This document shows positions 11,713 to 63,801 of a DNA stretch of 64,000 nucleotides, piece by piece. The DNA lies in assembly GCA_965237835.1 (NCBI GenBank), contig OZ250160.1, forward strand, positions 2,530,146-2,594,145, given 5' to 3'. Each line of letters begins with the position of its first letter. Position 1 is the first letter of the stretch. A model generated the notes under the pieces. The model had not been told where the DNA came from and made no database searches. It saw nothing but the letters and a program-made list of their open reading frames with translations. The DNA comes from Candidatus Poribacteria bacterium (GTDB lineage: Bacteria > Poribacteria > WGA-4E > WGA-3G). The position numbers were made by a program, and so were the translations under genes.

Positions 11713-11713
11713 T

Positions 11714-13544: not shown

Positions 13545-13643
13545 ATCCGAGATTTAGACAGAACCTTTGACATTTAATCCAACACATAGTAGAATAAACA
13601 CAACGTTAATTGGTATTAGAACAGCACATAGGAGAACACACCC

Positions 13644-16051: not shown

Positions 16052-16065
16052 AATGAAACTGTCCA

Positions 16066-18333: not shown

Positions 18334-18351
18334 TACGACCGCGCTGCGGTA

Positions 18352-19808: not shown

Positions 19809-19809
19809 T

Positions 19810-20568: not shown

Positions 20569-20578
20569 GGAAAATAAA

Positions 20579-21358: not shown

Positions 21359-21768
21359 AATTACGTCGCATTTATCATTGTGAATAACAACAGACAGGTA
21401 TCCTTGAGGTTACCTGTCTTCTCTTTTTATCAGAAAAAGTTGACATGTAACATGTATACGCGTATATTATCTGAACCAGGATTCTCAAGATTACCAGATT
21501 TTCAGGATTATAGATACTTCCTCAAATGAACAAGGACTTTGTCGAGAAATATAGATTTGAAGATAATACTAACTAGCAGAAGATAGCCATCCATCTAAAA
21601 GCATACTAATCCTGTCCATCCTGGTTCAGACAATCCGAGATTCAGACAGAACCTTTGACATTTAATCCAACATATAGTAGAATAAACGCAACATTAAAAT
21701 GATTTATATTTAGCCCGCGTCTTTCTATCCAGATAGGTATTTAGCACAGCACACAGGAGAACACACCC

Positions 21769-22917: not shown

Positions 22918-22971
22918 TACTACCGTTCTGTGGTATTAGGTATTTAGAACAGCACACAGGAGAACACACCC

Positions 22972-24075: not shown

Positions 24076-24257
24076 TACGACCGCGCTGCGGTCTGTTGTA
24101 AAATGCCAATTTTCTGTTAGCGGAATTGTCCCTTAAATCTATCTATAAGAGAAAACTCTCATAGAATAATAGCATCTGTTTGCAAGCATTCCTATCTGGT
24201 TTTGTGAATTAAATTCTAAACGTCCCTGTTAATTTCTACTTGGTAAGGAGAAAAATC

Positions 24258-25397: not shown

Positions 25398-25414
25398 ACG
25401 TCTCTGAAATTACA

Positions 25415-30039: not shown

Positions 30040-30850
30040 GTAGGTCGGGTAGAGCGTCCGCGAAACCCATAAGCGTCAATTTAAGAAAAGTCTGCGTTTT
30101 TATAAACACCTCTCAATAAGCATGAGGACTGAGATTGTCTTATATTTAGTCCCGTAGGGACGAAATGTTTATAGTACCTCGTCCTGCAAACCCATCTCTT
30201 CAGCTCCGTAGGAGCGAAATGTGTATAACGTCTTATTATAAACATATTGCCCCGCTGGGGAAATCAAAGAGCATTTTTCATATTTGAAATATCACTAAAT
30301 TGACGCCTATGGGTAGAGCGTCCGCGAAACCCGACAAGATTATTGTATCAGCACATGCCGGGTTTCGCTCTGCTCTACCCATAGGCGTCAATTTAAGAAA
30401 AGTCTGCGTTTTTATAAACACCTCTCAATAAGCATGAGGACTGAGATTGTCTTATATTTAGTCCCGTAGGGACGAAATGTTTATAGTACCTCGTCCTGCA
30501 AACCCATCTCTTCAGCTCCGTAGGAGCGATATGTGTATAACGTCTTATATAAACATATCGCCCCGTTGGGGAAATCAAAGAGCATTTTTCATATTTGAAA
30601 TATCACTAAATTGACACCTATGGGTTTCGCTCTGCTCTACCCATTAACGTCAATTTAGGCGTTTTTTGAGAATGAGACATGCTCTTTAATCCCGTAGGGA
30701 CGCAATGTTTATAGCAACGGAGGCACCCCCCCAATTCTTTAGCCCCGACGAATGCCATACGCGCATTCGGCGTTGATTTGGTAAGGGCGGAATGTTTATA
30801 ACGTGTTATTTCACATCTCACAATTAAAAAGTTGACATCTGCCCTTAGAT
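30040..30850. repeat. Mosaic REP/BIME-like repeat cluster: two ~300-bp units of hairpin modules delimited by taaattgacgcctatg...palindrome REPs
   Basis: The unit aagaaaagtctgcg...cccgtagggacgaaatgtttatag...ccgtaggagcgaaatgtgtataac...ccccgctgggg occurs twice. Related clusters lie at 36895-37510 and 49400-50120. Confidence 0.6.
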
Positions 30851-34588: not shown

Positions 34589-34710
34589 CAGGGTTATTTA
34601 GTTTTAGGCTTTTTGTCCATTTTATCCGAAAAGTCGCGATTCGGAGATCGCTCGGACAGCGGAAAGTCTTAAATTGAAAACCTAAATATTCGGAGAACTA
34701 AATAGCCCTG
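34589..34710. mobile_element. MITE-like element family 1 (single copy) with 8-bp target-site duplication CTATCTGT
   Basis: TIRs cagggttatttagtt / aactaaatagccctg. Flanking direct repeat ctatctgt. Confidence 0.65.
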
Positions 34711-35816: not shown

Positions 35817-36893
35817 TTAAGGTGTTTTAAGTTTTCCCCAGGTTACTGTCTGTTTACTTACGCCTGGGGAAACTGAGAAAAAATTTTCTGATGTCCAGAC
35901 TGGCACATGATCGCTTGAAAGACCTTCTGTCTCTTTGAGAGGTTTTCCAACACCACCTTTGGCGTCTACGAGATAAATGGTACTGTCACTAAAAATGAGT
36001 CTGAATCCATTAGCGGGGTTTGGCCACGCATCAACCTCCACAACTGAATAGGCAATCCAGTTCCCATCAGGAGACCATGCAGGATTACCAGCTCGAAATC
36101 CATTGTCCATGTCAGTTAATTTGTGGAGATTTTTTCCATCAACATCAACTGTAAAAATGTTCACACCTTCTACGCCAAAATTTCCAGCAGCAAAGGCGAT
36201 CTGCTTTCCATCTGGCGACCACGCACAACCACCCCACAGCGGTAGATCTTCTGTCACCTGTCTCAACTCCCCACCCACAGCGTTCATGACATAGATAGAA
36301 TGATTTTCTTCTCGATCGGAATCAAAAGCGATCAGCTGACTATCTGGGGACCAGGCAGGGCTCACACTGTGTCCTTGGTCAGTCAATCTTATTAAGTTGG
36401 AACCGTCCGCATCCATTCTGTAAATATCTTGGGTTCCTTCCCGATCAGAGACAAAGACAATCCATTTTCCATCGGGTGACCAAGCTGGCCATAAATCTCT
36501 CTCGGGGTGCTGTGTCAACCGGATAGACTTTTTGTTTCTAATATCCATTTTAAAAATGTCAAGATTTGCGTTTTCGTTAGATGTATAAGCAAAAAGATAA
36601 CCGTTCGGGGAACATGTGAGCGCACTTTTTCTCATTGCATCCGTTGCAAGACGTTGGAGAACTGTCCCTCTCGTATCTATAAGAAAAATGTCATAATGCC
36701 CATCCTCATTAGAAAGAAAAGAGATAACAGATTTTTCAGCCGCGTGTCCGTCCTTAACCAATTGATTGCTACCGATGAATAACACAGTTCCTAACAACAG
36801 AAGATAAACTAATATTTGTTTCATATAGACAGGTTCTCCTAATTTGAATGCACGTCTCCATAGTATACCACAACAGAAAGTTGAAATATACAA
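35817..36893 (-). CDS. TolB-like periplasmic beta-propeller protein (PD40 repeats) with N-terminal signal/TM
   Basis: Repeated AWSPDGKWIVFVSDREG..DIYRMD PD40-type blades. Confidence 0.75.
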   Translation of the reverse strand: MYISTFCCGILWRRAFKLGEPVYMKQILVYLLLLGTVLFIGSNQLVKDGHAAEKSVISFLSNEDGHYDIFLIDTRGTVLQRLATDAMRKSALTCSPNGYLFAYTSNENANLDIFKMDIRNKKSIRLTQHPERDLWPAWSPDGKWIVFVSDREGTQDIYRMDADGSNLIRLTDQGHSVSPAWSPDSQLIAFDSDREENHSIYVMNAVGGELRQVTEDLPLWGGCAWSPDGKQIAFAAGNFGVEGVNIFTVDVDGKNLHKLTDMDNGFRAGNPAWSPDGNWIAYSVVEVDAWPNPANGFRLIFSDSTIYLVDAKGGVGKPLKETEGLSSDHVPVWTSENFFSVSPGVSKQTVTWGKLKTP

Positions 36894-36894
36894 A

Positions 36895-37510
36895 TATGAA
36901 AAATGCTCTTTGATTTCCCCAGCGGGGCGATATGTTTATAGAAAAAGTGCTACCCCTAACTCTTTGGTTTCCCCAGCGGGGCAATATGTTTATAATAAGA
37001 CGTTATATACATTTCGCGGAGCTGAAGAGATGGGTTTGCAGGACAAGGTACTATAAACATATCGTCCCTACGGGACTAAATATAAGACAATCTCAGTCCT
37101 CATGCTTATTGAGAGGTGTTTATAAAAACGCATATTTTTCTTAAATTGACGCCTATGGTGCGGTTAGGAAACCGCACCATAGGCGTCAATTTAAGGAAAC
37201 GTCTATGTTTTTATGAACCCTTATCAATAGGCATGGTTATTGATATTGTCGGACATTTAGTCCCGTAGGGACGATATGTTTATAGTACACCGTCCAGACA
37301 CGTCTCTTTAGCTCCGTCCGAGCGACATATCCCGATTGGTAACCCATTGCTATAAACATTCCGCCCCTACGGGGCTGAAGAGATTGGGGTTACCACGTTT
37401 TCTATAAACATATCGTCCCTACGGGACTGAAGAGCATTTCTCATATTTGAAAAACTACTAAATTGACGCCTATGGTGCGGTTAGGAAACCGCACCTACCG
37501 GACCTGGGGA
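36895..37510. repeat. Mosaic REP/BIME-like cluster (reverse-orientation copy of the 30.0-30.8 kb unit plus extra modules)
   Basis: The perfect palindrome taaattgacgcctatggtgcggttaggaaaccgcaccataggcgtcaattta lies near 37141. Multiple hairpin+ATGTTTATA modules. Confidence 0.6.
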
Positions 37511-45459: not shown

Positions 45460-45760
45460 TTCCGGATGGTAAGTGCGGTTTCCGAACCGCACCTTATGCG
45501 TCAATTTAGTGGTCCCCAACCCGGCAGGAGCGGTTTCTAACCGAACCTTTTTGTATCAACATCTCAAATAACGCAAAGGACGAGAATATCAGTGTTCGTA
45601 GTCGCGCAATTCACGCGCCTCTTTTCTTTGAATGTAAGAGGCGCGTGAATTGCGCGACTACAAACGAGTTCTTTCCTTAAATTGACGCTTATGGTGCGGT
45701 TTCCTAGCCGCACTGATAGATTGGAATCAAGTTAATTTGGTATTAGTTTCCCTTTAGTTT
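45460..45760. repeat. Cluster of three REP families (A: GTAG-gtgcggtt..aaccgcac; C: GTAG-tcgcgcaattc..attgcgc; E-type tail)
   Basis: ggtaagtgcggtttccgaaccgcacc, cgtagtcgcgcaattcacgcgcc...ggcgcgtgaattgcgcgactac, ggtgcggtttcctagccgcac. Confidence 0.55.
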
Positions 45761-48233: not shown

Positions 48234-48355
48234 CAGGGCTATTTAGTTCTCCGAATATTTAGATTTTCAATCTAAGACTTTCCGCTGTAGGAGCGATCTC
48301 CGAATCGCGACTTTTCGTCTAAAATGGACAAAAAGTCTAAAACTAAATAACCCTG
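48234..48355. mobile_element. MITE-like element family 1 (single copy) with 8-bp TSD CATAACAA
   Basis: TIRs cagggctatttagtt / aactaaataaccctg, flanked by cataacaa on both sides. Confidence 0.65.
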
Positions 48356-48457
48356 CATAACAAGATTTAATTTGAAAGAGATTATATCTCATGATATACT
48401 CTACAGCAAAAAAGTTTTCGGTTTATAGTCGTGACGCCTAAAGAATAGGAGTTTGCC

Positions 48458-49399: not shown

Positions 49400-50120
49400 A
49401 CGTCACAAAGCGGTAGGTGCGGTTTCCTACACCGCACCTTATGCGTCAATTTAAGAAAAAGTCTGCGTTTGGACAAACACCTCTCAATAAGCATGAGGAC
49501 TGAGACTGTCTTATATTTAGTCCCGTAGGGACGATATGTTTATAGTACCTCGTCCCGCAAACCCATCTCTTCAGTTCCATCCGAGCGAAATGTGTATAAT
49601 GTCTTATATATAAACATTCCGCCCCTACGGGGAAACCAAAGAATTGGGGGTGCTTCCGTTGCTATAAACATTGCGTCCCTACGGGACTAAAGAGGGTTTC
49701 TCGGACACGGAAAATCACTAAATTGACGCTAATGGTGTGGTTTCCTAACCGCACCATTAGCGTCAATTTAAGGAAATAAACCTATATTTTGGATATCTTA
49801 GCCCCAGCGGGGCGGAATGTGTATAGACCACGATCCATACCAAACTCAAGCCCCAGCAGGGCGAAAGGTGTATATGGGCACATGTTGTCAGACATCTGTC
49901 ACCCCGAATCAACGCCAAATGCGCGTATGGCATTTGTCGGGGTTCAAGAGACTGTTGGACACCGTTTTCTATATACCTGTCGCACCGCTGGTGCTAAGAT
50001 GTGATTTACCAAAGCCTCGGGGGAGGCGAAAGATGTATCAGACGCACTAAATTGACGCCCATGGTGCGGTTTCCTAACCGCACCGATAGATTGGAATCCC
50101 GTTAATTTAGTATTAAACCT
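49400..50120. repeat. Mosaic REP/BIME-like cluster with hairpin+GAA(A/T)NNTGTNTA modules
   Basis: A copy of the 300-bp unit (49440-49700), followed by ccccagcggggcggaatgtgtataga, ccccagcagggcgaaaggtgtatatg, caccgctggtgctaagatgtgattta and cctcgggggaggcgaaagatgtatcag. Confidence 0.6.
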
Positions 50121-52329: not shown

Positions 52330-52620
52330 TGAAGGTATGAAACACCTGTGGTGCGATTAGAAACCACACCATTAGCGTCAATTTAGCGGTCCTCCAGGGC
52401 CGGTAGGTGCGGTTTCCTAACTGCTCCTTTTGTATCAACATCTCAAATAACGCAAAGGACGAGAATATCAGCGTTCGTAGTCGCGCAATTCATTGCGCCT
52501 CTTTTCTTTAAACGAGTTCTTTCCTTAAATTGACGCCTGTGGTGCGATTAGAAACCACACCTACCGGTCCTGGAGGATCAGTGATAAATTGATACCTATG
52601 CGTCAATCAGAAAAGATACC
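52330..52620. repeat. REP cluster (families A and C) in the long intergenic region
   Basis: ggtgcgattagaaaccacaccattagcgtcaattta, ggtaggtgcggtttcctaactgc, cgtagtcgcgcaattcattgcgcc, ggtgcgattagaaaccacacctacc. Confidence 0.5.
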
Positions 52621-52766: not shown

Positions 52767-55196
52767 ATGTTATTTCAGAAACAGAGAATGATAGGGATGT
52801 GTCTGGCACTGCTGATGTTAGTCGCCCTTAGTGTAAACATAACCGATGCACAGCAGTCGGGTGCCAATGTAAATCTTAGGAAATCTGAGTTAAGTGATGC
52901 GGTCAGGGCATATAACGAACTTTCGGCTGCAGCAGCGCGTGCTTTTATGATACACCTCACCGACCCAACCAATACCGAAGCGTTAGAGAAATCGGTTACG
53001 TTGTCAAACAACTTTATCGCTGAATATCCGACATTAGACCGCGTGCATGCTGTCAACTACTACCTCGGCAGAGCATTGGTGCAATTAGGGGATGTTGAAA
53101 CGGGCATCGCTACCCTCGAAAAACTGATAGAGGATACCCAGTCTGATCGTCCCGCTACGACGCGGTATGTAGATGAAATCGGGGATAGGTTTATATGGAA
53201 TCCCTTTGAACATGGTTTGCTGGAGTTAGGATTGGCTTATGATAAGAACAAACAGCACGATAAGGCAGATGCCGTCTATAATAGGCTGATAACACACCCA
53301 AAGTTTGGAGGCTGGCATCAGGCACGGATTGCAAGGCAAATACTTATAACGGATACTGCTTCGCGAACAGGTCAAACCCCCATGACTCACAATGCGTGGA
53401 TATATAAACCAGCACTCAATTTTCGGATGCAATATGGGGAAAATAGACGGCAAGTACGCACATTGAAGGAATACGAGGGACAGGTCGTGTTGCTCTATTA
53501 TGGCGCACCCGACACACCAATTCTCAAACAAGTTCACGATAAATATAAAGACCAAAAGTTTCAGATTATTTCCGTGAACGCAGACGTATCCGAACTGCCT
53601 ATTGCTAAACCTATAGTGGAAAAAGGTGACGCATGGATTCACTATCACGACACACACGGCAAAGTCGCCAATATGTATGAGATACGCGCCCTTCCCGCTG
53701 TCTTTCTGTTGGATAGCGAAGGTTCTATCCGAAAGACGCACCTTGACGCGGCATCTCTTGAAAATGCAGTTGATGAACTGGTGAAGGAAAACCTTGCTAA
53801 ATACGCTGATCCGAGAACGCAAGCGGTTATCGCAAAGGCGGTTGAGGCACACGGCGGACTTGAGAAACTAAAGGCTGTGGAAAATATGGTAATGGATGCA
53901 AGCATTTTTGAACACCATCCGGATGGTTCTGTAGACGAAGAAGCACGCGGAAAAGTCTACCTTTACCGTGATAAATTCTATATGGAATTCATTGCTGATA
54001 AGGGTGAACGGCTCATCAGTATCTTTGATGGTACTACAATTTACAGGAAAAAACCAGATGGAACTTATGAACGTATGCCTGATGAGGTTGCCAAATCTCT
54101 AACTGCTTTCCATAACGATTGGCTTTTCAGTATGCCGATTTGGCTCTTGCCAGTCCTCGCTGAAAACGAGATCCCTATTCAGTATGTCGCGACAGGGCAT
54201 GCGAAAGGTGCGCCTGCTGTTGTGCTAAGTGTTCAGCAACCTTCTGGGAGACCGCTCAAAATCTACATCAGTTCTGAAACACACTATATTGTGCAGCTTG
54301 CGTTTCATGATGGACGCGTAAACAGAGTTACGTCTTTCGAGCAGTATAAGGATGTAGATGGCATCAAAATGTCGCATTCTTGGACTGAGAAACACCAGTC
54401 GCATACTGAAACATTTCTCAGCAATGTCATCATCAACGCAGATATTGACCCGAAACTTTTTGATCCGAATTCTGGCGAAAAGAATTGGGCGAATGTACCC
54501 AAAGTGAACCCCGACAACCTTGCAGAAAACGCTGAGCCAAAAGCCGATGATATTATCGCAGCGATGGTCGCGGCGCACGGTGGGATTAGGAAATTACGTG
54601 CGGTTGAAAACATGGTGCAAGATTATACCCTCTTTGTGGCGCGTCCTGATGGCATTTTGGAAAATTATGGCGGCGGGAAAGCATATCTTTATCCCAAAAA
54701 ATATCGCTCAGATTTCTTTACTGTCAACGGTGAAAAGTCTTCGATGTTTACGGATGGCAAAACGATATACTACAAGGAAGGCGACATATTTGCAAAATTG
54801 CCTGAAGATCAAGTTAAAGCGCAGATGAAGAGCGATAAAGATATGGCGTTCCGTGAACCGATTTGGTTGTTGAAAATGCTGGCTGAATACAATTTATCTA
54901 CGGAATATGTGGGTGTTGAGGATGTGGATGGTGGCACTGCTTCAGTGATGCGTCTTGCACAACCTTCTGAGATACCTATCAAACTCTATATCAGCGATAA
55001 AACGCACTATCTCGTGAAGATTGTGGTTGAAGAGGAAGAGCAGACGGTGAAACTTTATAGGCAGTTCAAGGATGTTGATGGTATCATGCTTCCGCATCAA
55101 TCTATTACAAGAAGGGCAGGTTTGCATCATGAAACGCATTTCAGTAACGTCATCCTCAACGCAGAAATTGACCCTGCCCTCTTTGAACCGAAATAG
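52767..55196 (+). CDS. Secreted multidomain protein: TPR-like N-region, redox-inactive thioredoxin-like (TlpA-like) domain, and two tandem LolA/RseB-like (outer-membrane lipoprotein-sorting-like) domains
   Basis: Signal peptide. The thioredoxin-like block VVLLYYGAPDTPILKQ...VFLLDSEGSI lacks CxxC. Two ~200-aa repeats begin AVENMV.D...PDG. Confidence 0.5.
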   Translation: MLFQKQRMIGMCLALLMLVALSVNITDAQQSGANVNLRKSELSDAVRAYNELSAAAARAFMIHLTDPTNTEALEKSVTLSNNFIAEYPTLDRVHAVNYYLGRALVQLGDVETGIATLEKLIEDTQSDRPATTRYVDEIGDRFIWNPFEHGLLELGLAYDKNKQHDKADAVYNRLITHPKFGGWHQARIARQILITDTASRTGQTPMTHNAWIYKPALNFRMQYGENRRQVRTLKEYEGQVVLLYYGAPDTPILKQVHDKYKDQKFQIISVNADVSELPIAKPIVEKGDAWIHYHDTHGKVANMYEIRALPAVFLLDSEGSIRKTHLDAASLENAVDELVKENLAKYADPRTQAVIAKAVEAHGGLEKLKAVENMVMDASIFEHHPDGSVDEEARGKVYLYRDKFYMEFIADKGERLISIFDGTTIYRKKPDGTYERMPDEVAKSLTAFHNDWLFSMPIWLLPVLAENEIPIQYVATGHAKGAPAVVLSVQQPSGRPLKIYISSETHYIVQLAFHDGRVNRVTSFEQYKDVDGIKMSHSWTEKHQSHTETFLSNVIINADIDPKLFDPNSGEKNWANVPKVNPDNLAENAEPKADDIIAAMVAAHGGIRKLRAVENMVQDYTLFVARPDGILENYGGGKAYLYPKKYRSDFFTVNGEKSSMFTDGKTIYYKEGDIFAKLPEDQVKAQMKSDKDMAFREPIWLLKMLAEYNLSTEYVGVEDVDGGTASVMRLAQPSEIPIKLYISDKTHYLVKIVVEEEEQTVKLYRQFKDVDGIMLPHQSITRRAGLHHETHFSNVILNAEIDPALFEPK

Positions 55197-55424: not shown

Positions 55425-55455
55425 CCCCTTGCAATCACACCCCGATTCGCATATA
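55425..55455 (+). promoter_or_regulatory. Sigma-70-type promoter for the Type IIG gene
   Basis: TTGCAA, 17 nt, TATAAT. Preceded by the family-2 element tail cctaatcctgaaaatccttgttcagacaaa. Confidence 0.45.
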
Positions 55456-55456
55456 A

Positions 55457-58400
55457 TTGCCGTTGCATCAATATCAACAGTCACAAGGGGACACCATGCC
55501 ATCTCTCAACATCAAACCCACACACAAACCGATCAAGACATACTACATGGAACTGGAAAAATATGAACAACTCGGCGCAGAAAACGAGGGCAGCGTCAGA
55601 GCAGCATTCCAAAACCTACTACAGCACTACTGCGGACAATCCAACCTCACGCTCCTTTGCGAAAAAACGATCCACACCACAGATAACAGGCGGATAATCC
55701 CTGATGGCGAAATCGTTGACGTATACAAATTACCGCACGGCTATTGGGAAGCAAAAGATACACAGGACGACCTACATAGCGAAGCAGACAAGAAGTTCAC
55801 CGTAGGCTACCCCTCCAAAAACATCGTGTTTCAATCACCGACACACGCGCTCCTCTATCAGAACGGGCAGCTACGACTTGACACAGACATCACCGACCCG
55901 AAAAACCTTGTCCAAGTGCTGCAAACCTTCTTAGCATATCAAGAGGAGAACATCACAGCGTGGCATCAGGCTGTCGCAGAATTCAGAGAGATTGTCCCAC
56001 AACTCGGTGAAAAACTGGCGACGTTGATCCAAACCGAACGTCAGAACAATCCACATTTTCAGGAGGCGTTCTCCAATTTCCATCAGCAGTGCCAAACCTC
56101 TATTAACCCGAATCTATCTATCGCTGCAGTTGAGGAGATGCTCATCCAGCACCTGCTAACCGAACGGATATTCGCTACCATTTTTGATAACCGCGACTTC
56201 ACCCGCAGAAATATCATCGCACGCGAGATTGAAAATGTTATTGATGTGCTTACTGAACGCACCCTGAACCGATCCGAATTTCTCCGTCACTTGAACCCGT
56301 TTTACGTAGCAATAGAGAAAACTGCCCGCACGATTACCGATTTCTCACAGAAACAGGGATTTCTGAATGCGGTTTATGAGCAGTTTTTTCAAGGCTTCTC
56401 TGTCAAGGTCGCAGATACGCACGGTATCGTCTACACACCGCAACCGATTGTGGATTTCATGGTGAAAAGCGTTGAACACATTGGACAGACAATGTTCGGT
56501 CGTTCCCTGTCCGATAGCGGTGTGCATATCATTGACCCATTTGTCGGCACTGGCAACTTCATTGTCCGCATCATGCAGGAACTTGACCCGATCGCACTGG
56601 AACGGAAATACACCGCCGACCCGCCAGAACTGCAGTGCAATGAGGTGATGCTCCTACCATACTACATCGCCAGTCTGAACATAGAACATCAGTTTTTCAC
56701 GGCGACGAACCGGTACGCCGCATTTGAAGGTATCTGCCTTGTGGATACTTTTGAAATGGCAGAGGATCGGCAGATGTCGCTATTTGTGCCTGCAAACACG
56801 GCACGCGTTGAGAAACAGAAGCAGACACCGATGTTTGTGGTTATCGGCAATCCGCCCTACAATATGGGACAGGTGAATGAGAACGACAACAACAAAAATC
56901 GCAAATATGAGACGATGGACAAGCGGATTGCGGATACTTATGTGAAAGATTCTAAAGCGACGCTCAGAAATAAACTCTACGATCCTTATGTCAAGGCGAT
57001 TCGGTGGGGCTTGGACAGGATTGGTGAGGAAGGGGTTGTCGCCTTTGTTACGAACAATAGTTTTCTTGATGGCATTGCGTTTGATGGCATGCGGAAACAC
57101 CTTGCAGAGGATTGCGATGCTATCTACATTCTGGATTTAGGCGGAAATGCGCGGAAGGGATTGAAGGTCTCCGATGCCAATGTATTCGGTATTCGGGTTG
57201 GGGTGAGCATCAATCTATTTGTCAAGAAAAAGGATGATTCATCTGAGACACCGCACCTCTTTTACTATCGCACCGATGACTTGTGGAACAAAAAACAGAA
57301 GTTTGATTTTCTCAATGAACGTCAACACATAGGCGGTATTGAATGGCGACCTATTCTACCGGATGCACGGCAAACATGGCTCACCGAAGGTCTGCACGCC
57401 GAGTTTGACACTTTTATTTCAATGGGAGACAAGGAAACGAAAAGATCTACAAGTGAGGTCGATTCAATTTTTCGTCTTTACTCTTTGGGAGTTGCTACAA
57501 ACAGAGATGTTTTGGTTTATTCTTTTGATCTTGGCTTGTTACAAGAACGCGTTGACACATTTATTGAAATATACAATACAACCGCTGATAGGAAGAGGAG
57601 GCACAGTCCGAAGGATCCCGTTGAAAGTTTCATTGATACGAATGATCCTTGCATCAAATGGACTCGTCAAGTTAAAGCATCGCTGAAAAGACTTGAGCCA
57701 AGCAGCTACGAAGAGACACACTTTCGTTCTGCTTTGTATCGTCCGTTCTGTCAGAAACATCTCTACTTTGATAATTTTTGGAATGAGGAACGTTATCAAC
57801 AACATCGAATTTTTCCTACATCAGAGGTAGAAATTGAAAATCAGGTAATTTGTGTTGGAGGGTACGGTAGAAAAGAATTTGCTGTTTTGATGAGCAATTC
57901 TATTCCTGACTTGAATCTATATTCTGATCCGCACCAATGCTTCCCGTTCTACACCTACGACGAAGATGGCACAAATCGCCGCGAAAACATCACCGATTGG
58001 GCATTGGCGCAGTTCCGCATGCACTACAAAGACGACTCCATCAGCAAGTGGGACATCTTCCACTATAACTACGGCATCCTGCATCATCCGGACTATCGCA
58101 ATAAGTATCAGGCGAACCTCAAGCGCGACCTGCCGCATATCCCGTTTGCCCAAGATTTTTGGGGATTTGCCAACGCTGGCGCGCGCTTAGCAGACATACA
58201 CGTCAACTACGAATCCCAACCCGAATATGACAAACTCAAGTTCGTGCAGAACCCAAACGTCCCGCTCAATTGGCGCGTTGAGAAGATGAAACTTGCCAAA
58301 GATAAAACCTCGCTTGTCTACAATGATTTTTTGACGCTTGATGGTATTCCAGCAAAGACGTTTGACTATCGGCTTGGCACCCGTTCTGCGTTGGAATGGA

Positions 58401-58561
58401 TTATCAATCAGTATTGTGTCAAAACGGACAAGCGGAGTGGCATCGTCAACGACCCGAATCGTGCCGATGATCCGCAATATATTGTGCGGTTGATTGGGCA
58501 GGTGATTTCGGTGAGCTTGGAGACGGTGGATATTGTTGAGAATTTGCCTGCGTTACAGTAG
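55457..58561 (+). CDS. Type IIG/IIL restriction-modification enzyme (MmeI-like: N-terminal PD-(D/E)xK nuclease fused to gamma-class N6-adenine methyltransferase and a TRD)
   Basis: N-terminal IPDGEIVD...WEAKD (the D...ExK of the MmeI family). MTase motif I DPFVGTGNF, motif IV VIGNPPYN. 1034 aa. Confidence 0.7.
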   Translation: MPLHQYQQSQGDTMPSLNIKPTHKPIKTYYMELEKYEQLGAENEGSVRAAFQNLLQHYCGQSNLTLLCEKTIHTTDNRRIIPDGEIVDVYKLPHGYWEAKDTQDDLHSEADKKFTVGYPSKNIVFQSPTHALLYQNGQLRLDTDITDPKNLVQVLQTFLAYQEENITAWHQAVAEFREIVPQLGEKLATLIQTERQNNPHFQEAFSNFHQQCQTSINPNLSIAAVEEMLIQHLLTERIFATIFDNRDFTRRNIIAREIENVIDVLTERTLNRSEFLRHLNPFYVAIEKTARTITDFSQKQGFLNAVYEQFFQGFSVKVADTHGIVYTPQPIVDFMVKSVEHIGQTMFGRSLSDSGVHIIDPFVGTGNFIVRIMQELDPIALERKYTADPPELQCNEVMLLPYYIASLNIEHQFFTATNRYAAFEGICLVDTFEMAEDRQMSLFVPANTARVEKQKQTPMFVVIGNPPYNMGQVNENDNNKNRKYETMDKRIADTYVKDSKATLRNKLYDPYVKAIRWGLDRIGEEGVVAFVTNNSFLDGIAFDGMRKHLAEDCDAIYILDLGGNARKGLKVSDANVFGIRVGVSINLFVKKKDDSSETPHLFYYRTDDLWNKKQKFDFLNERQHIGGIEWRPILPDARQTWLTEGLHAEFDTFISMGDKETKRSTSEVDSIFRLYSLGVATNRDVLVYSFDLGLLQERVDTFIEIYNTTADRKRRHSPKDPVESFIDTNDPCIKWTRQVKASLKRLEPSSYEETHFRSALYRPFCQKHLYFDNFWNEERYQQHRIFPTSEVEIENQVICVGGYGRKEFAVLMSNSIPDLNLYSDPHQCFPFYTYDEDGTNRRENITDWALAQFRMHYKDDSISKWDIFHYNYGILHHPDYRNKYQANLKRDLPHIPFAQDFWGFANAGARLADIHVNYESQPEYDKLKFVQNPNVPLNWRVEKMKLAKDKTSLVYNDFLTLDGIPAKTFDYRLGTRSALEWIINQYCVKTDKRSGIVNDPNRADDPQYIVRLIGQVISVSLETVDIVENLPALQ

Positions 58562-58594
58562 TAGGCACACTCCGTGTGCCATAAACCATATTCC

Positions 58595-58623
58595 TTGATA
58601 TTTTCTTCGGAATGTGCTATTAT
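58595..58623 (+). promoter_or_regulatory. Sigma-70-type promoter for the SIR2-NTPase operon
   Basis: TTGATA, 17 nt, TATTAT. Confidence 0.45.
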
Positions 58624-58694: not shown

Positions 58695-59750
58695 ATGAAT
58701 AATCAAAAAATAATTTTACCCGAAGTTTTTACACCACAAGAACGAAACGAAAACACTGAGCGAAAGCGTGAATTGGTTGAGTTTGTTGCTTCTGGAGAAG
58801 CCGTACTTATAGTTGGCGCAGGAAGTAGTGTGCGTGTCTGCTACGTGACTTGGGATGGTCTTATGGTGAATTTGGAGAATTTAGCCAATGAATGTGGTGA
58901 AGGTCTTACTCAAAGATTTAAGAATGACCCATTAGCATACGCAGAAGACATCAAATTGCACATTAAAAATGAAACAAGCAATCTAAACAGATATCACGCT
59001 TTGCTTCAGAACCTATTTTGTCCAAAAGATCCACCGTGTAATGATTTTCATAAAAAACTTGTTGCACTACCCTTTAGAGGAATCTTGACAACCAATTACG
59101 ATACTGTGCTTGAAGCAGCATTAGGTGAGATAGAACCGAGATTTGCCTATGATAACTCATTCATCATTAACGAAAATTCCGCTGGACGAGTTCATGAATT
59201 TTTGATGGCAATGAATAATGATAAAAGAATGACTCGGCGTATTGCACACTTGCACGGAAAATTTGATCCAGTGGATAGTATAATTTTGAGTATTGAAGAC
59301 TACAAAAATGCTTATGGTTTGAATCTCACTGACAGAGACAATCGACAAGCAGATGAATCTAAACTTCGTTTCAGACTACTTTGGTCGGTTTTAGCAACCC
59401 GTAGGGTCGTATTTATCGGTTTCAGCATGAATGATCCCTATTTCAACAAGATGTTAGAAACTGTCAGTGCTGACTTGTGGAGATGGAATAAATCCATTCA
59501 CTTCGCAATTATGAGTATTGCCTCTGGTAGTGCCGAGAATTCAAAAGTTAAAGCTGAAACGCTTAAGAGTGAATATGGCGTTGGCACTGTGTTTTACGAA
59601 GATTCTGACGACACGCATCAAGGTTTGGATCGTATACTTGATGAAATTGATGAAGCGTGCAAAGTTAAGAATCAACCGACAACTGATGAAGTAGATTGGT
59701 CAGAACAAATAAATCGACGAATGGAAGGGGGAATCGGGGATGAAGATTAA
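58695..59750 (+). CDS. SIR2-like (SIR2_2/DSR/ThsA-type) domain protein, putative NAD+-depleting defense effector
   Basis: Defense-SIR2 motifs LIVGAGSS (GAGxS), TTNYD, HLHG, and a late VVFIGFSMNDPYF block. Confidence 0.7.
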   Translation: MNNQKIILPEVFTPQERNENTERKRELVEFVASGEAVLIVGAGSSVRVCYVTWDGLMVNLENLANECGEGLTQRFKNDPLAYAEDIKLHIKNETSNLNRYHALLQNLFCPKDPPCNDFHKKLVALPFRGILTTNYDTVLEAALGEIEPRFAYDNSFIINENSAGRVHEFLMAMNNDKRMTRRIAHLHGKFDPVDSIILSIEDYKNAYGLNLTDRDNRQADESKLRFRLLWSVLATRRVVFIGFSMNDPYFNKMLETVSADLWRWNKSIHFAIMSIASGSAENSKVKAETLKSEYGVGTVFYEDSDDTHQGLDRILDEIDEACKVKNQPTTDEVDWSEQINRRMEGGIGDED

Positions 59751-62700
59751 TCGCAAGAAACTGTTGAACGACTTGCAGGACTTTGCATCACGAGGGGATG
59801 GAGTCATTATCGGTAGTCCGGGGATCGGAAAAACATACGTGCTGAAAGAACTTCGTCAAAGTCTAAAGTCTGCCGGAATACCACATCTCCTTTTACGGAT
59901 CGACCAACTTGGAGATGGCACGGACAAAACTTTACGAGAAGAGTTATCTTACAAAGGCGATCTAATTGAAAAATTGAAATCTATACCTGTTTCAGGCAAG
60001 AACGCAATTTTACTGTTTGATGCCTTTGATGCTGCACGGGATGAACAAACACGCAAACGCTTTTTAATCCTGATTCGACGTACAATCCGAGAACTCGTGA
60101 AGTGGAACGTAGTCGTTACAGTGAGAACCTATGACGCAAAGAAATCACAAGAACTCTTAGACATGTTTGGTAGTCCTGATGAATCGGTCCCACTCAATTA
60201 CCAGACCAAAGAAACCTTATGTCGACATTTCATAATACCACCTCTTGTTGAAGACGAAATCTTACACGTATTGGATCAGATTGGGTGTCCAAAAGACGTC
60301 TACTATGGAGGTTCGCAAGAGTTTAAGCATATTTTATCAATACCGTTCAACCTTTTGCTATTAGAAAAGATTATTAAATACTCACCAAATGAAGATATTA
60401 AATCCATTAGTCAAATTCGTTCAGAAGTTCAGTTGTTTGATCGGTTTTGGCAACAACGAGTTGATAATGAAACAAGTAAACGTGTTCTGCGAATAATCTC
60501 AAGTCAAATGGTTAAGGAACGTTCGTTGACCGTGAAAGTGGATGACATTCATGACGAAGTGGACCTTGACAACCCAGTGAGGAAATCCGCTTGGGATAAG
60601 CTCCAGAGTGATGAAATTTTGGCAATGGTTTCTTCAACAGGCCAAAGAATTGCATTCTCTCACAACATTCTCTTTGACTATGCAGTAAGCGTTTTACAGA
60701 TAGATGACAAACCACGACATTTTGAGAGATTTATTACCGAAGATCCCTCGCGCCCACTTTTTCTCAGACCAAGTCTTACCTATTTTTTTACACGCCTTTG
60801 GTATTATGAAGACTCAAAATATTTCTGGCGTGCATTCTGGCACATTTTATCAAGTAATCAATCTATCCATTTGCGTCTTGTCGCGCGCTTGATTCCGACA
60901 AGCGTTATTGCAAATGAAGCACGAAATATTGAACAACTGAATCAACTTATACAAAGACTTCAGAATAGTGAACCTTATGCAGACGAAGCAACAACAAGAC
61001 TTTTTCAGGCACTACAGTCCCTACAAATTAAACGAGAAAATCCCTGGATTGATTTCTGTGATCAAGCATCAGAATACTTGCACACCGACTTTGCTTGGGA
61101 TTTGGCAAACCTCACATCAGATATTCTTGAGGACACAAAAGATACAAATGTCGAAAATGCTTGTGGACGTGTAGGACGACGGTTACTTGAATGGGTTTGG
61201 CAAGAGAGAGAAACGAATGAAAGTGATTGGTATAACCGCTTTGGGGGACGTTGGGCAGTACCGCTTGTTGCAAAAACATATCATACAAATGTTGAAGAAT
61301 CTCGCGCACTTCTTGAAAAAGTTCTCCAATTAACACAAGAAGATAATTTCCCAATAGGATTTCTGACATGGTTGACTGACAATGTTGACAATATTTGTAT
61401 GCATGACCCAGAATTTGCAATCTTAATATATCGTACTGTTTTTTCACACCAATTTACCAGTGAAGGAGAGACACAACGCGGTACCCCTATTTTACCTATA
61501 ATTACCTATCGGAGCCAAGATTTTGGTATGTGTCAATATCGTCTGGTAAAGCATTTCCCTAAATTTCTACAAAAAAAACCTATATATGCAACACAAGCAG
61601 CAATCCAAAGTTTGAACTGTTTTATTGCTAAAGAACATGTTTTCCAGTTTTCCAGAAAAGATATGACAATTGATAAATTAATAGAACCGTTCGATTTTCA
61701 TGGGAAGACTGCATATTTTGTGAAAGACGATAGTTATATCTGGGATGCACAAATATCTTCTGATGAACCAATTGAAATGGCGAATACGCTGTTTGACTTT
61801 ATGACAAAATTGGCAAAGTCTGAAGAACAATATAACCTTCTCGATTCAATTCTTGATGTATTTGTAGATCAAGTGTATGTCGCATTTTTCTGGAAACGCC
61901 TATTGAAAATAGCGTCTCAGTTTCCAAAAGTTTTCGCACCGCGTTTGTTTGAGTTATGCATAGCAAAACCGATACTAATACATCTTGAAGTTTCTTATGA
62001 ACTCGGTCTATTTATAGAAAATGCTGCCTATGAATTTTCATCTGAACAACTACATCAGATTGAAGAAAGCATATTAGCACTCCCCAATGAATTGAAGAAC
62101 CAGGAAAATCACAACTATCTTAAAATGCATAGAGACAGTCTCCTTGCACAAATTCCTATGGAATTACTTTCTACAGATGAAGCTAAGTCAATAAGAGAAA
62201 AAATGGAACGTGAAAACAATGTTCCAGAAAATCGACCATTAGCGAGTTTTCATACTGGATGGGAATCTGTAACTGAAGAGAAACTGTTAAAAGAAAAAGG
62301 TATTGATCCTAATAAGCCTGAAAATCAAGTGTTACTTAGCTTATCCAAACCTCTTGTACAATTCAGTTCTGAATGGAGGAATAGTTCCCTGTCTAATGAA
62401 GCTGCAAAATTGGTTTTTCCTCAACTACAAGAAGCCTATGCAGCTAAAAGTAATACACAAGCGAAAAAAGAGGTAATAAACTCACTCTTCCATAAAATAG
62501 CTGAATGTGCGGCAATTCTTGGTAGAATCGCTGATAAGCTTGACAATGAAGCGTTTGTATTTTGCCGTAAAGTGCTACTTGAAGCTGCAAATCATGAAGA
62601 ACCAATACCAGATCCTGAAAACGATGAAAAATTCGATTTTCCAGGTTATTCATCACAACCACGACATTATGCTGCTGAAGGACTACTAAGAATAGTGTTC

Positions 62701-63801
62701 TATAAACCCGACTTGGAGATATTATCTGTAATTGAAAAGTTAGCTGATGATCCAGTTCCATCTGTTAGAATGTTGGTAGCTATGTATTTATCAAAAGTTC
62801 ATGTCAAAGAACCTGATAGATTCTGGCATATCATTAATAATAGAGCAGACCAGGAAGGAAATCTCATCGTTCAAGAATGTCTTTATTCAGCATTAAGGTA
62901 TGTAATAAGACCAACAAAAGAGAATGATGAAAAAACAGCAAGCGTTATGGCTAAAATTCTTGAGAAAACTCCTTTACCACAACAAAAAATGGGTACAATT
63001 GACCCGTTTAGTTTTCTTATAGTTGGCTTAGCAATAGTACGACAAAATCAATGGGCGTTAACCACAATTAATGAAGAATTCTTGAAAGATCCTATCAGAT
63101 TTGCCAATCTCCTCACCCGTTTTGTAACACAGGTTATAAAAGGCTATATAGATCCAAAACATACCCAAGAAAAAGATTTCGAAAGTAATTTAGTACGCGC
63201 AATTACCTTACTCAAAAGTATAGTCACTGTGACTATTTCTGCGATTAATGAATTAGGTTCTACTTTAAAGGAACAGAGAACAGAAAAAGTTGAGGAAAAA
63301 TTGCGAAACACTTACTCAGTCATTGACCAGATCATTACAAGTCTTTACTTTTCTTTTTCATATATAAAAAATAGTGATACCGAATCTACTGAAAAAAATG
63401 AAAATAATAATGCACTCTCTCTAATATTTAATGAAGTCTATCCATTAATGCAACAGATAGTAGATTTCGCACAAGATAAAGAAAACGGACTAATGTTTGC
63501 CCCGACAGCACATTATTTCATACAACTATTAACATGTTTTCTCAAATGTAATCCAAGAATAGTTATAAGTTTAGCCGAAGGTGTCGCGAGTTCAAGTGAA
63601 AGATTCGGTTATACGTTTGATTCAATTGCAGTTAAAGACATAGTTGATTTAGTCGAAATAGTCCTTGCAGACTATCGACATGTAGTGCGGGAAAACGAGG
63701 AAAGCTTGGAACATCTACTGAATTTATTAGATCTGTTCGCTAAAACAGGTCAGTCTGATGCACTTAATCTTGTTTGGAGACTTGATGAGGTATTTCGGTA
63801 G
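59740..63801 (+). CDS. Large (1353 aa) P-loop NTPase with extended alpha-helical C-terminal region (STAND-like candidate sensor), translationally coupled to the SIR2 gene
   Basis: Walker A GSPGIGKT at residues 26-33, Walker B-like AILLFDAFDAARD, then VVVTVRTYD. About 1150 aa of predicted helical repeats. The start overlaps the SIR2 stop by 11 nt. Confidence 0.6.
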   Translation: MKINRKKLLNDLQDFASRGDGVIIGSPGIGKTYVLKELRQSLKSAGIPHLLLRIDQLGDGTDKTLREELSYKGDLIEKLKSIPVSGKNAILLFDAFDAARDEQTRKRFLILIRRTIRELVKWNVVVTVRTYDAKKSQELLDMFGSPDESVPLNYQTKETLCRHFIIPPLVEDEILHVLDQIGCPKDVYYGGSQEFKHILSIPFNLLLLEKIIKYSPNEDIKSISQIRSEVQLFDRFWQQRVDNETSKRVLRIISSQMVKERSLTVKVDDIHDEVDLDNPVRKSAWDKLQSDEILAMVSSTGQRIAFSHNILFDYAVSVLQIDDKPRHFERFITEDPSRPLFLRPSLTYFFTRLWYYEDSKYFWRAFWHILSSNQSIHLRLVARLIPTSVIANEARNIEQLNQLIQRLQNSEPYADEATTRLFQALQSLQIKRENPWIDFCDQASEYLHTDFAWDLANLTSDILEDTKDTNVENACGRVGRRLLEWVWQERETNESDWYNRFGGRWAVPLVAKTYHTNVEESRALLEKVLQLTQEDNFPIGFLTWLTDNVDNICMHDPEFAILIYRTVFSHQFTSEGETQRGTPILPIITYRSQDFGMCQYRLVKHFPKFLQKKPIYATQAAIQSLNCFIAKEHVFQFSRKDMTIDKLIEPFDFHGKTAYFVKDDSYIWDAQISSDEPIEMANTLFDFMTKLAKSEEQYNLLDSILDVFVDQVYVAFFWKRLLKIASQFPKVFAPRLFELCIAKPILIHLEVSYELGLFIENAAYEFSSEQLHQIEESILALPNELKNQENHNYLKMHRDSLLAQIPMELLSTDEAKSIREKMERENNVPENRPLASFHTGWESVTEEKLLKEKGIDPNKPENQVLLSLSKPLVQFSSEWRNSSLSNEAAKLVFPQLQEAYAAKSNTQAKKEVINSLFHKIAECAAILGRIADKLDNEAFVFCRKVLLEAANHEEPIPDPENDEKFDFPGYSSQPRHYAAEGLLRIVFYKPDLEILSVIEKLADDPVPSVRMLVAMYLSKVHVKEPDRFWHIINNRADQEGNLIVQECLYSALRYVIRPTKENDEKTASVMAKILEKTPLPQQKMGTIDPFSFLIVGLAIVRQNQWALTTINEEFLKDPIRFANLLTRFVTQVIKGYIDPKHTQEKDFESNLVRAITLLKSIVTVTISAINELGSTLKEQRTEKVEEKLRNTYSVIDQIITSLYFSFSYIKNSDTESTEKNENNNALSLIFNEVYPLMQQIVDFAQDKENGLMFAPTAHYFIQLLTCFLKCNPRIVISLAEGVASSSERFGYTFDSIAVKDIVDLVEIVLADYRHVVRENEESLEHLLNLLDLFAKTGQSDALNLVWRLDEVFR

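What the first reader, a model, noticed from the sequence alone, without database searches (positions are those of the whole stretch)
55457..58561. MmeI-like Type IIG/IIL single-polypeptide restriction-modification enzyme
An N-terminal PD-(D/E)xK (PDGEIVD...WEAKD, spaced as D70/E80/K82 of MmeI) is fused to a gamma-class N6A MTase (DPFVGTGNF, NPPY) and a C-terminal TRD. MmeI-family enzymes cut about 20 nt from the site and modify one strand. Specificity is TRD-encoded and engineerable. Together with the SIR2 operon it defines a defense island.
Basis: partly seen in the sequence, partly recalled or inferred. Interest (0 to 1): 0.5.

Follow-up and report, generated by a model that had tools for sequence, protein, structure and literature searches.

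The report
DrdV-like single-chain restriction-modification enzyme
This gene encodes an ordinary but intact one-protein restriction-modification enzyme related to the characterised enzyme DrdV rather than to MmeI, and its DNA-reading segment has been swapped among otherwise near-identical copies in sponge-symbiont bacteria.

Summary
The ORF and all quoted motifs are real. The true start is most likely the ATG at 55496 (1021 aa), because the listed TTG at 55457 overlaps a promoter-like -10 box. The protein is a full-length homologue of DrdV (PDB 7LO5; E = 1.3e-193, about 40% identity): N-terminal PD-ExK nuclease, helical connector, gamma-class N6-adenine methyltransferase, then a Type-ISP-type target recognition domain (TRD). 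All five DrdV nuclease active-site residues and NPPY are conserved, and are invariant in 120 close homologues. No MmeI similarity appears even at E <= 10, no MmeI Pfam domain passes threshold, and the motif is D-x14-E-x-K, not D-x9-E-x-K. By homology the cut should be about 10/8 nt from the site, not about 20. No BREX genes or companion methylase are present. New here: relatives from Candidatus Poribacteria share a 79-97% identical body but only a 31-77% identical TRD core, and that core has anomalously low GC3, which points to exchange of the specificity segment. The adjacent SIR2-STAND operon is a separate, exchangeable cassette. Verdict: new member of a known kind, modest interest.

The parts
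55429..55457 (+). Promoter-like site for the RM gene: TTGCAA, 17-nt spacer, TATAAT
   Evidence: 10 of 12 consensus matches. A consensus match only. It overlaps the TTG start listed by the ORF finder.
55485..55490 (+). Shine-Dalgarno-like AAGGGG, 5 nt upstream of the ATG at 55496
   Evidence: Read directly from the sequence.
55496..58561 (+). DrdV-like Type IIL restriction-modification gene (1021 aa plus stop)
   Evidence: An identical 1021-aa protein, P0001, is in NCBI/ENA. It is a full-length homologue of DrdV 7LO5, E = 1.2e-193, query 16-1019 against chain 9-1026.
55496..56005 (+). N-terminal PD-ExK endonuclease domain (aa 1-170). Active-site equivalents: E31 (55586-55588), D70 (55703-55705), E85 (55748-55750), K87 (55754-55756), K100 (55793-55795)
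55994..56341 (+). Helical connector (Pfam ISP_coupler)
   Evidence: PF22240, E = 4.9e-18, aa 180-295 in 1034-aa numbering.
56351..57385 (+). Gamma-class N6-adenine methyltransferase domain. Motif I DPFVGTGNF at 56534-56560; motif IV NPPY at 56849-56860
   Evidence: Pfam N6_Mtase and Eco57I. Motif coordinates. 43.9% identity to the DrdV MTase domain.
57386..58558 (+). Target recognition domain (Pfam Type_ISP_C covers 57464-58489)
   Evidence: PF18135, E = 7.5e-95. Aligns to the TRDs of DrdV, LlaGI and LlaBIII.
57428..57925 (+). Hypervariable, low-GC3 TRD core (aa 645-810), the presumed specificity-determining segment
   Evidence: Column entropy is 1.43 bits over aa 631-810, against 0.44 (aa 1-630) and 0.51 (aa 811-1021) elsewhere. 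Identity to 119 homologues is 31-77% here while the body is 79-97%. The segment is unalignable by blastn against L003 although its flanks are 92-97% identical. GC3 is 0.32 against 0.53-0.64 in the rest of the gene. It contains four of the five positions equivalent to DrdV's TRD base-contact residues (N669, R724, Y767, N807); P812 lies just outside.
58564..58580 (+). Perfect 7-bp stem, 3-nt loop hairpin (GGCACAC-TCC-GTGTGCC) starting 3 nt after the stop codon, at the left boundary of the SIR2-STAND cassette
   Evidence: -11.4 kcal/mol. A similar sequence follows the RM gene in L004, which also carries a SIR2 cassette, but not in L002 or L003. There is no T-run, so the terminator scan did not call it.
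58695..63801 (+). Adjacent but separable SIR2 (58695-59750) plus STAND/NACHT NTPase (59740-63801) defence operon, with its own promoter-like site at 58595-58623
   Evidence: Pfam SIR2_2 and NACHT. PADLOC PDC-M54A, E = 4.2e-183. Promoter-like site. It is absent as a clean 5.5-kb indel from the closest relative's locus, L002.

Best explanation
[quoted passage not shown] The methyltransferase domain and TRD together clamp a short asymmetric DNA site. The target adenine is flipped into the NPPY pocket and methylated on N6, on one strand only, using S-adenosylmethionine. The N-terminal PD-ExK nuclease (D70, E85, K87, helped by E31 and K100) is tethered by a helical connector and cannot reach the DNA bound by its own chain. 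Cleavage occurs only when several site-bound molecules assemble in trans, so that nuclease domains from partner molecules pair on one duplex. The cut lies at a fixed short distance 3' of the site, about 10/8 nt by analogy with DrdV. Discrimination between self and foreign DNA is kinetic. Isolated unmethylated host sites are slowly methylated, whereas incoming DNA with several unmethylated sites is cut quickly.

Specificity lies mainly in the TRD core (aa 645-810) plus an MTase loop (aa 490-493). In this Poribacteria clade the core has been repeatedly replaced by recombination on a conserved scaffold. Because one module directs both methylation and cutting, each replacement changes both together.

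Shown here: domain homology, conservation of catalytic residues, the fold of the nuclease domain, the mosaic variation and the genomic context. Inferred from DrdV: one-strand methylation, the multi-site requirement, the cut distance and the kinetic model.
For: Homology to DrdV is full length: E = 1.3e-193, query 29-1032 against chain 9-1026, 39.6% identity overall with no large indels in the nuclease or connector.

DrdV active-site residues E25/D64/E79/K81/K94 correspond to E31/D70/E85/K87/K100 and are all conserved. They are among the few invariant or near-invariant columns in 25 diverse relatives and are invariant in 120 close homologues, as is NPPY.

Domain hits are Pfam ISP_coupler, N6_Mtase, Eco57I and Type_ISP_C. 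PADLOC gives a full-length match to REase_MTase_IIG PDLC03621.

The ORFs examined showed no ATPase/translocase adjacent to the gene, no companion methylase and no BREX gene. The only helicase-like ORF (DinG-like, 4998-6995) lies about 50 kb upstream.

The gene has its own promoter-like site and Shine-Dalgarno sequence.

The mechanism is taken from the DrdV cryo-EM and biochemistry paper (bioRxiv 10.1101/2021.01.06.425610).

For TRD-core exchange: variation; composition.
Against: Nothing here is biochemical. The recognition sequence, methylation and cleavage are all untested.

The charged residues that build DrdV's two oligomer interfaces are not conserved one for one. R12 becomes E, D15 becomes K, E41 becomes G, R46 becomes T, E230 and D231 become R and R, and K251 becomes N. 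The geometry or stoichiometry of the cleavage complex, and therefore the exact cut distance, could differ.

DrdV F304, which stacks on the flipped adenine, is Val here, although the adjacent Tyr is kept.

The full-length AlphaFold model was too poor to check the domain arrangement (pLDDT 42).

Only 3 of DrdV's 5 TRD base-contact residues are shared, so the site cannot be predicted.
Confidence: 0.85

Rival explanations
1. It is a member of the MmeI family proper: a Type IIL enzyme that cuts about 20/18 nt from its site using a D-x9-E-x-K nuclease.
Against: Morgan et al. 2009 (PMC2731913) require E < 1e-20 to MmeI, full-length similarity and aligned D70/E80/K82. No MmeI chain is retrieved from the PDB even at E <= 10, either with the whole protein or with a profile of the nuclease domain. 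The MmeI_Mtase score is below its gathering cut-off of 27, and no MmeI_N, hel, TRD or C domain hits. D75 is variable in the family, whereas D70 (x14 spacing) is invariant and equals DrdV's metal ligand D64. The homologue DrdV cuts at 10/8 nt.
Confidence: 0.04
2. It is a BREX PglX/BrxX-like or orphan methyltransferase with no working nuclease, so it modifies DNA or acts as a sensor but does not restrict.
For: Public annotations of homologues read only 'N-6 DNA methylase'. PglX-type proteins are also large gamma-class N6A methyltransferases.
Against: All five nuclease active-site residues are invariant across 120 homologues and conserved in diverse relatives, which indicates purifying selection on catalysis. 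PglZ, BrxC, BrxL and other BREX genes were not found among the large ORFs of the window or the locus flanks. PADLOC returned no BREX family for this protein or its two downstream neighbours, the only ORFs scanned. BrxX is not retrieved from the PDB at E <= 10.
Confidence: 0.05
3. It is a Type ISP enzyme like LlaGI/LlaBIII, or a remnant of one, that needs ATP-driven translocation and head-to-head sites.
For: The connector, methyltransferase and TRD are clearly of Type ISP lineage: LlaGI E = 3.4e-148 and LlaBIII E = 1e-147 from aa 202 onward, with Pfam ISP_coupler and Type_ISP_C. The best PADLOC hit, PDLC03597, is a 1646-position profile matched only over its C-terminal half.
Against: The Mrr-type nuclease and the SF2 ATPase, about 580-750 N-terminal residues in LlaGI/LlaBIII, are absent. 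They are replaced by a 170-aa DrdV-type nuclease. No helicase gene is adjacent. The 1021-aa architecture is the norm across the family, so this is not a truncation.
Confidence: 0.03
4. The RM gene and the SIR2-STAND operon form one obligate composite defence system.
For: They are immediately adjacent on the same strand, 133 nt apart. The same pairing occurs in L004.
Against: The closest relative (L002, 91% identity, same flanking genes) lacks the SIR2-STAND cassette as a clean 5.5-kb indel. L003 has a different cassette (SMEK_N-STAND) in the same slot. Each unit has its own promoter-like site. The cassette's GC3 (0.28-0.32) differs from that of the RM gene body (0.53-0.64).
Confidence: 0.05

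Closest known systems
DrdV (Type IIL RM enzyme of Deinococcus wulumuqiensis 479; PDB 7LO5/7LVV; bioRxiv 10.1101/2021.01.06.425610)
   Different: About 60% of residues differ. The oligomer-interface charge clusters are not conserved or have swapped charge. 2 of 5 TRD base contacts and most MTase-loop base contacts differ, so the site is probably not CATGNAC. The gene comes from a different phylum (Candidatus Poribacteria) and belongs to a clade with a mosaic, low-GC3 TRD core.
Type ISP enzymes LlaGI / LlaBIII (PDB 5FFJ, 4XQK)
   Same: The connector (coupler), methyltransferase and TRD are homologous (E about 1e-148 over aa 189-1019 in 1021-aa numbering). Pfam names these domains after Type ISP.
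   Different: This protein lacks the Mrr-family nuclease and the SF2 translocase ATPase. It has a different, DrdV-type N-terminal nuclease. It is expected to stay on its site and cut in trans at a fixed distance, rather than translocate and nick on collision.
MmeI family (Type IIL; PMC2731913, PMC4833311)
   Same: The functional class and domain order are the same: single chain, N-terminal PD-ExK nuclease, gamma-class N6A methyltransferase and C-terminal TRD, with one-strand methylation, a multi-site requirement and specificity that can be re-engineered through the TRD.
   Different: No detectable sequence similarity (absent at E <= 10). No MmeI Pfam domain passes threshold. The motif is D-x14-E-x-K rather than D-x9-E-x-K. 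The expected cut distance is about 10/8 rather than 20/18.
BpuSI (Type IIG; PDB 3S1S)
   Different: Only 12% identity in the aligned nuclease region. The Foldseek match is marginal (E = 7e-3, query-normalised TM 0.39). It is not retrieved by sequence or profile search.

Membership tests
DrdV-like Type IIL RM enzymes | Full-length homology to DrdV with the order nuclease, connector, gamma-class MTase, TRD in a single chain of about 1000 aa | tested here: met
   E about 1e-193, query 16-1019 against chain 9-1026; 39.6% identity; full-length match to PADLOC PDLC03621.
DrdV-like Type IIL RM enzymes | PD-ExK active site equivalent to DrdV D64/E79/K81 plus E25 and K94 | tested here: met
   maps them to D70/E85/K87 plus E31 and K100. 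Conserved. Fold confirmed.
DrdV-like Type IIL RM enzymes | Gamma-class N6-adenine MTase motifs: motif I (FxGxG-like) upstream of motif IV (NPPY) | tested here: met
   DPFVGTGNF and NPPY. Pfam N6_Mtase and Eco57I.
DrdV-like Type IIL RM enzymes | No ATPase/translocase domain and no separate methyltransferase or specificity subunit | tested here: met
   Domain scans. Neighbours within about 10 kb. Large window ORFs.
DrdV-like Type IIL RM enzymes | One-strand m6A modification, multi-site (in trans) activation, and cleavage at a fixed short distance (10/8) leaving a 2-nt 3' overhang | not testable with these tools
   Needs methylome data and biochemistry. Inferred from DrdV.
DrdV-like Type IIL RM enzymes | DrdV's oligomerisation interfaces (K8/R12/D15 with E41/R46; D224/E230/D231 with K251 and others) | tested here: inconclusive
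   the residues are not conserved and several are charge-swapped. This could reflect a co-evolved interface or a different assembly.
MmeI family (Morgan et al. 2009, PMC2731913) | Significant similarity (E < 1e-20) to MmeI along the whole length | tested here: not met
   at E <= 10 the PDB search returns only DrdV, LlaGI, LlaBIII and a weak HsdM hit. This assumes the copy holds the MmeI-DNA structure of PMC4833311; the nuclease profile finds only DrdV.
MmeI family (Morgan et al. 2009, PMC2731913) | PD-ExK residues aligned with MmeI D70/E80/K82 (D-x9-E-x-K) | tested here: not met
   The family-invariant triad is D-x14-E-x-K. The x9 Asp (D75) is variable.
MmeI family (Morgan et al. 2009, PMC2731913) | Pfam MmeI_N, MmeI_hel, MmeI_Mtase, MmeI_TRD and MmeI_C domains | tested here: not met
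   Only MmeI_Mtase appears, at 17.8 bits against a cut-off of 27. Nothing hits the N-terminal 180 aa or the TRD even at E <= 5.
Type ISP (LlaGI/LlaBIII) | Coupler, gamma-class MTase and Type_ISP_C TRD | tested here: met
Type ISP (LlaGI/LlaBIII) | N-terminal Mrr-like nuclease plus SF2 helicase-like ATPase motor | tested here: not met
   The LlaGI and LlaBIII alignments start at chain residues 582 and 746. No helicase or ATPase domain is found in the protein.
BREX PglX/BrxX | BREX gene neighbourhood (PglZ, BrxC, BrxL and others) and no nuclease domain | tested here: not met
   No BREX families. A conserved nuclease domain is present.
MADS (mad2) | A mad2-like protein inside a multi-gene mad1-8 locus | tested here: not met
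   PADLOC mad2 gives a partial hit only (E = 1.9e-19, aa 41-375). The neighbours are a TPR-thioredoxin protein, SIR2 and STAND, with no mad genes.

The most novel reading that the evidence does not exclude
The Poribacteria clade containing this gene may be a natural specificity library. It has dozens of distinct TRD cores: 53 clusters at 80% identity among 120 proteins, and 64 signatures at seven DrdV base-contact-equivalent positions. These cores are grafted by recombination onto a scaffold that is up to 97-100% identical, often with 3-4 paralogues per chromosome. The cores come from a compositionally distinct (low-GC3) pool that is shared across sponge-symbiont phyla. If each core type gives a different recognition site, pairing these sequences with long-read methylomes could yield a recognition code for DrdV/Type ISP-type TRDs. 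It could also show how a one-strand-modifying enzyme survives a change of specificity in vivo.
Probability: 0.4. Interest if true: 0.5.

Novelty: new member of a known kind. Interest (0 to 1): 0.3.

Why it matters
On its own this is one more putative Type IIL restriction-modification enzyme. Its family has a solved structure and a worked-out mechanism, so the main value is a corrected annotation: DrdV family, expected cut about 10/8 nt, start at 55496. Public records of close relatives call it only 'N-6 DNA methylase' or even 'DNA helicase'. There is some wider interest in the population picture. Near-identical scaffolds carry very different, compositionally foreign TRD cores. Sponge symbionts hold many paralogues per genome. 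The slot immediately 3' of the gene accepts different STAND-type defence cassettes. Together these make the clade a convenient natural system for studying how single-chain RM enzymes change specificity, and for mining new specificities for biotechnology.

Tried and rejected
1. Full-length AlphaFold2 model from 45 close homologues. Mean pLDDT was 42 and pTM 0.31, too poor for a fold search or for judging domain arrangement, so it was not used. The alignment was too shallow and its sequences too alike.

2. Pfam scan of the N-terminal 180 aa and of the TRD at E <= 5. There is no family for the nuclease domain, including MmeI_N. The CREPT, polymerase-finger and polyhedrin hits are noise.

3. NCBIfam. 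It gave only a far sub-threshold hit to the Alw26I-type methylase, which was uninformative.

4. Permissive PDB sequence search and a nuclease-domain profile search, both looking for MmeI, BpuSI or BrxX. None was found. The DsbA and YfnB hits at E of 0.1-0.3 were dismissed as chance.

5. Search for silent TRD cassettes or a shufflon in the window by tblastn. Nothing was found, so on-site phase-variable TRD shuffling is rejected. No recombinase is adjacent, and the longest homopolymer in the gene is A6, so slipped-strand phase variation is unlikely.

6. Predicting the recognition site from DrdV base contacts. Only partial identity was found, so no prediction is made.

7. MADS (mad2) membership, BREX membership and an obligate composite with SIR2-STAND were all considered and rejected on context.
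Full report
OBSERVATION. An uninterrupted ORF runs 55457..58561 on the + strand (1034 aa from a TTG). The listed TTG start is probably not the real one. A promoter-like site, TTGCAA-17 nt-TATAAT, occupies 55429..55457 (10 of 12 matches), so its -10 hexamer ends on the first base of that TTG. The ATG at 55496 is preceded by AAGGGG with 5-nt spacing, and an identical 1021-aa protein starting at that ATG is on record in NCBI/ENA (P0001).

WHAT IT IS. Pfam finds ISP_coupler (4.9e-18), N6_Mtase (4.4e-10), Eco57I (3.4e-08) and Type_ISP_C (7.5e-95). MmeI_Mtase scores only 17.8 bits against a gathering cut-off of 27, and no other MmeI domain hits. PADLOC gives a full-length match to a 1024-position 'REase_MTase_IIG' profile (PDLC03621, 2.7e-187) and C-terminal-half matches to longer profiles of about 1600 positions. 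Against the PDB, the best hit is DrdV (7LO5), aligned end to end: query 29-1032 against chain 9-1026, E = 1.3e-193. [quoted passage not shown] Identity to DrdV, computed from that alignment, is 34.8% in the nuclease, 29.0% in the connector, 43.9% in the methyltransferase, 42.4% in the TRD and 39.6% overall.

NOT THE MmeI FAMILY, NOT BREX, NOT TYPE ISP. Morgan et al. 2009 (PMC2731913) define MmeI homologues by E < 1e-20, full-length similarity and residues aligned with D70/E80/K82. At E <= 10, the PDB search returns only DrdV, LlaGI, LlaBIII and a weak HsdM hit. A profile of the nuclease domain finds only DrdV (2.6e-52), and Pfam finds nothing in the N-terminal 180 aa even at E <= 5. It is not met. 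The nuclease is conserved, and the large ORFs elsewhere in the window encode a DinG-like helicase, ComEC, two HtrA-like proteases, a cadherin/LRR protein, a sigma-54 activator and similar proteins, with no PglZ, BrxC or BrxL. Type ISP membership fails because the Mrr nuclease and the SF2 motor are absent.

MECHANISM (inferred from DrdV). DrdV recognises CATGNAC, methylates one adenine on one strand, and cuts 10 and 8 bp downstream, leaving a 2-nt 3' overhang. The nuclease domain of a bound monomer does not touch its own DNA. Two DNA-bound molecules form a domain-swapped dimer, and further DNA-bound molecules add through nuclease-nuclease contacts to pair two active sites on one duplex. Cleavage therefore needs several unmethylated sites and is fast, while methylation of a single site is slow. 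The nuclease and connector here align to DrdV without large indels. One caveat: DrdV's interface charge clusters are not conserved residue for residue, and several are charge-swapped, so the assembly details could differ.

SPECIFICITY AND VARIATION. The protein has more than 8,000 database relatives. The top 120 are 75-91% identical, match over essentially the whole query (99-100% coverage), and, where named, are all from Candidatus Poribacteria. Conservation along the protein is 0.75-0.96 except over aa 631-810, where it falls to 0.38-0.60. Column entropy is 0.44, 1.43 and 0.51 bits for aa 1-630, 631-810 and 811-1021. Identity of the body to this protein is 79-97%, while the TRD core (aa 645-810) is 31-77% identical, and the two are weakly anticorrelated (r = -0.24). 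Homologues with a 92%-identical body have 32%-identical cores. The 120 proteins fall into 53 core clusters at 80% identity, and this protein's core is unique among them, with a best match of 77%.

The closest relative, P0002, sits at the same locus. It is 98.8%, 100% and 97.4% identical in the nuclease, connector and methyltransferase, but 63.9% in the core. Nucleotide identity is 97-100% over the first 1,350 alignment columns, 88-95% over the next 600, 68-71% across columns 1951-2400, and 95-97% just beyond. Against L003 the core is unalignable by blastn although its flanks are 92-97% identical. DrdV's base-contacting residues map to positions that are polymorphic among these close homologues: 669 N/S/G/C, 724 R/S/H/E, 767 Y/S/L/H/A/G, 807 T/K/D/N/H, and the MTase loop at 490, 491 and 493. 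This protein shares 3 of DrdV's 5 TRD contacts, so its site is probably related to CATGNAC but not identical; I make no prediction.

The core is also compositionally distinct. Its GC3 is 0.32, against 0.53-0.64 in the rest of the gene, and the dip is seen in all four loci examined. All 120 homologues keep E31, D70, E85, K87, K100 and NPPY. There is no silent TRD copy in the window. The simplest reading is repeated recombinational replacement of the specificity segment on a conserved catalytic scaffold. That is consistent with what is known for enzymes in which one module directs both methylation and cleavage.

CONTEXT AND THE 'DEFENCE ISLAND'. Downstream lie a SIR2_2 protein (58695-59750) and a 1353-aa NACHT/STAND NTPase (59740-63801). 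The latter matches PADLOC PDC-M54A at 4.2e-183 over that profile's positions 302-1657, so the SIR2 part that is fused in the profile is a separate gene here. The operon has its own promoter-like site at 58595-58623.

The window derives from a 5.93-Mb contig. In the 91% relative (L002), the same upstream gene (a TPR-thioredoxin protein) and downstream genes (253/256-aa and 76-aa ORFs) flank the RM gene, but the SIR2-STAND cassette is missing as a clean 5.5-kb indel that begins at the last codons of the RM gene. L003 has a SMEK_N-STAND cassette in that slot, and L004 has SIR2+STAND. The RM gene and the SIR2-STAND operon are therefore neighbours at a variable defence slot, not one system. The cassette's GC3 (0.28-0.32) also differs from that of the RM gene body.

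DISTRIBUTION. Many Poribacteria chromosomes carry 3-4 paralogues, for example OY282383.1, OZ240244.1, OZ240248.1 and OZ241983.1. Copies at 60-65% identity occur in Caldilineaceae and Latescibacterota MAGs.

VERDICT. It is wrong as to family (DrdV/Type ISP lineage, not MmeI), motif spacing and expected cut distance. This is a new member of a known, structurally characterised kind. The mosaic, low-GC3 TRD core and the family's expansion in sponge symbionts add modest interest.

Noticed in passing
window 58695-63801 (L001 13200-18306): A SIR2_2 protein (351 aa) and a NACHT/STAND NTPase (1353 aa) overlap by 11 nt. The NTPase matches PADLOC PDC-M54A (4.2e-183) only over that profile's positions 302-1657, so the SIR2 part that is fused in the profile is a separate gene here. 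The cassette has low GC3 (0.28-0.32) and is a clean 5.5-kb indel relative to the sister locus L002.
   Followed up: partly
L003 11471-16152 compared with L001 14275-20575: In the same slot 3' of the RM gene, L003 carries a SMEK_N-STAND protein (1041 aa) plus 382-aa and 127-aa ORFs. Their DNA aligns at 79.5% to the STAND body of the window's cassette. This looks like an N-terminal effector swap (SIR2 for SMEK_N) on a shared STAND scaffold, possibly with the gene broken into pieces in L003.
   Followed up: no
window 58564-58580; L004 about 11075-11100; L001 18513-18537: A perfect 7-bp stem, 3-nt loop hairpin (-11.4 kcal/mol) lies 3 nt after the RM stop codon, at the left edge of the SIR2 cassette. 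A similar sequence occurs in L004 but not in L002 or L003. A second hairpin (GCCGAATG...CATTCGGC) lies at the right edge of the cassette in L001 and L003. They could be terminators or recombination boundaries.
   Followed up: partly
window 10820-25400: There are extensive segmental duplications, for example 11571-12561 with 19667-20660 (96%), 12900-14770 with 16480-18350 (96%), and 13612-16039 with 22939-25361 (94%). They give three tandem triads of ORFs (about 252, 257 and 369 aa), and the 369-aa genes carry internal repeats of about 125 nt. Their function was not examined.
   Followed up: no
window 579-831, 34589-34710, 48234-48356; 30065-30625, 36891-37495, 49416-49755; 45485-45632 and 52362-52512: Three families of dispersed 120-250-nt repeats (80-97% identity, both orientations, some tandem or palindromic) look like MITE- or REP-type elements. 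Copies of the third family lie near transposase genes in L002 and L003.
   Followed up: no
loci L005-L084: Several Poribacteria chromosomes carry 3-4 paralogues of this RM family (OY282383.1, OZ240244.1, OZ240248.1, OZ241983.1). Copies at 60-65% identity occur in Caldilineaceae and Latescibacterota MAGs, which suggests transfer between phyla.
   Followed up: partly
P0133, P0203, P0233; PADLOC mad2 hit: Some proteins of about 490 aa carry the same N-terminal nuclease domain, and the PADLOC mad2 profile (492 positions) matches aa 41-375 of this protein (1.9e-19). The DrdV-type nuclease plus connector module may also be used in MADS-like systems.
   Followed up: no
L002 5263-7691 compared with window 52767-55196: The upstream TPR-thioredoxin-LolA-like gene is a single 809-aa ORF in the window but is split into 579-aa and 230-aa ORFs in the sister genome. 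This could be a frameshift, a pseudogene or an assembly error there.
   Followed up: no
L001 18578-19882 (just beyond the window end); L002 11097-12554; L003 16391-17704: A conserved trio follows the variable slot: a 253/256-aa protein, a 76-aa protein, and a 99-aa or 147-aa protein (a weak PIN hit in L002). The last two resemble a toxin-antitoxin pair. The L001 copies had no Pfam hits.
   Followed up: partly
window 2051-3397 and 3601-4932: Two adjacent paralogous HtrA-like serine proteases (Trypsin_2 plus two PDZ domains) share about 66% nucleotide identity.
   Followed up: no
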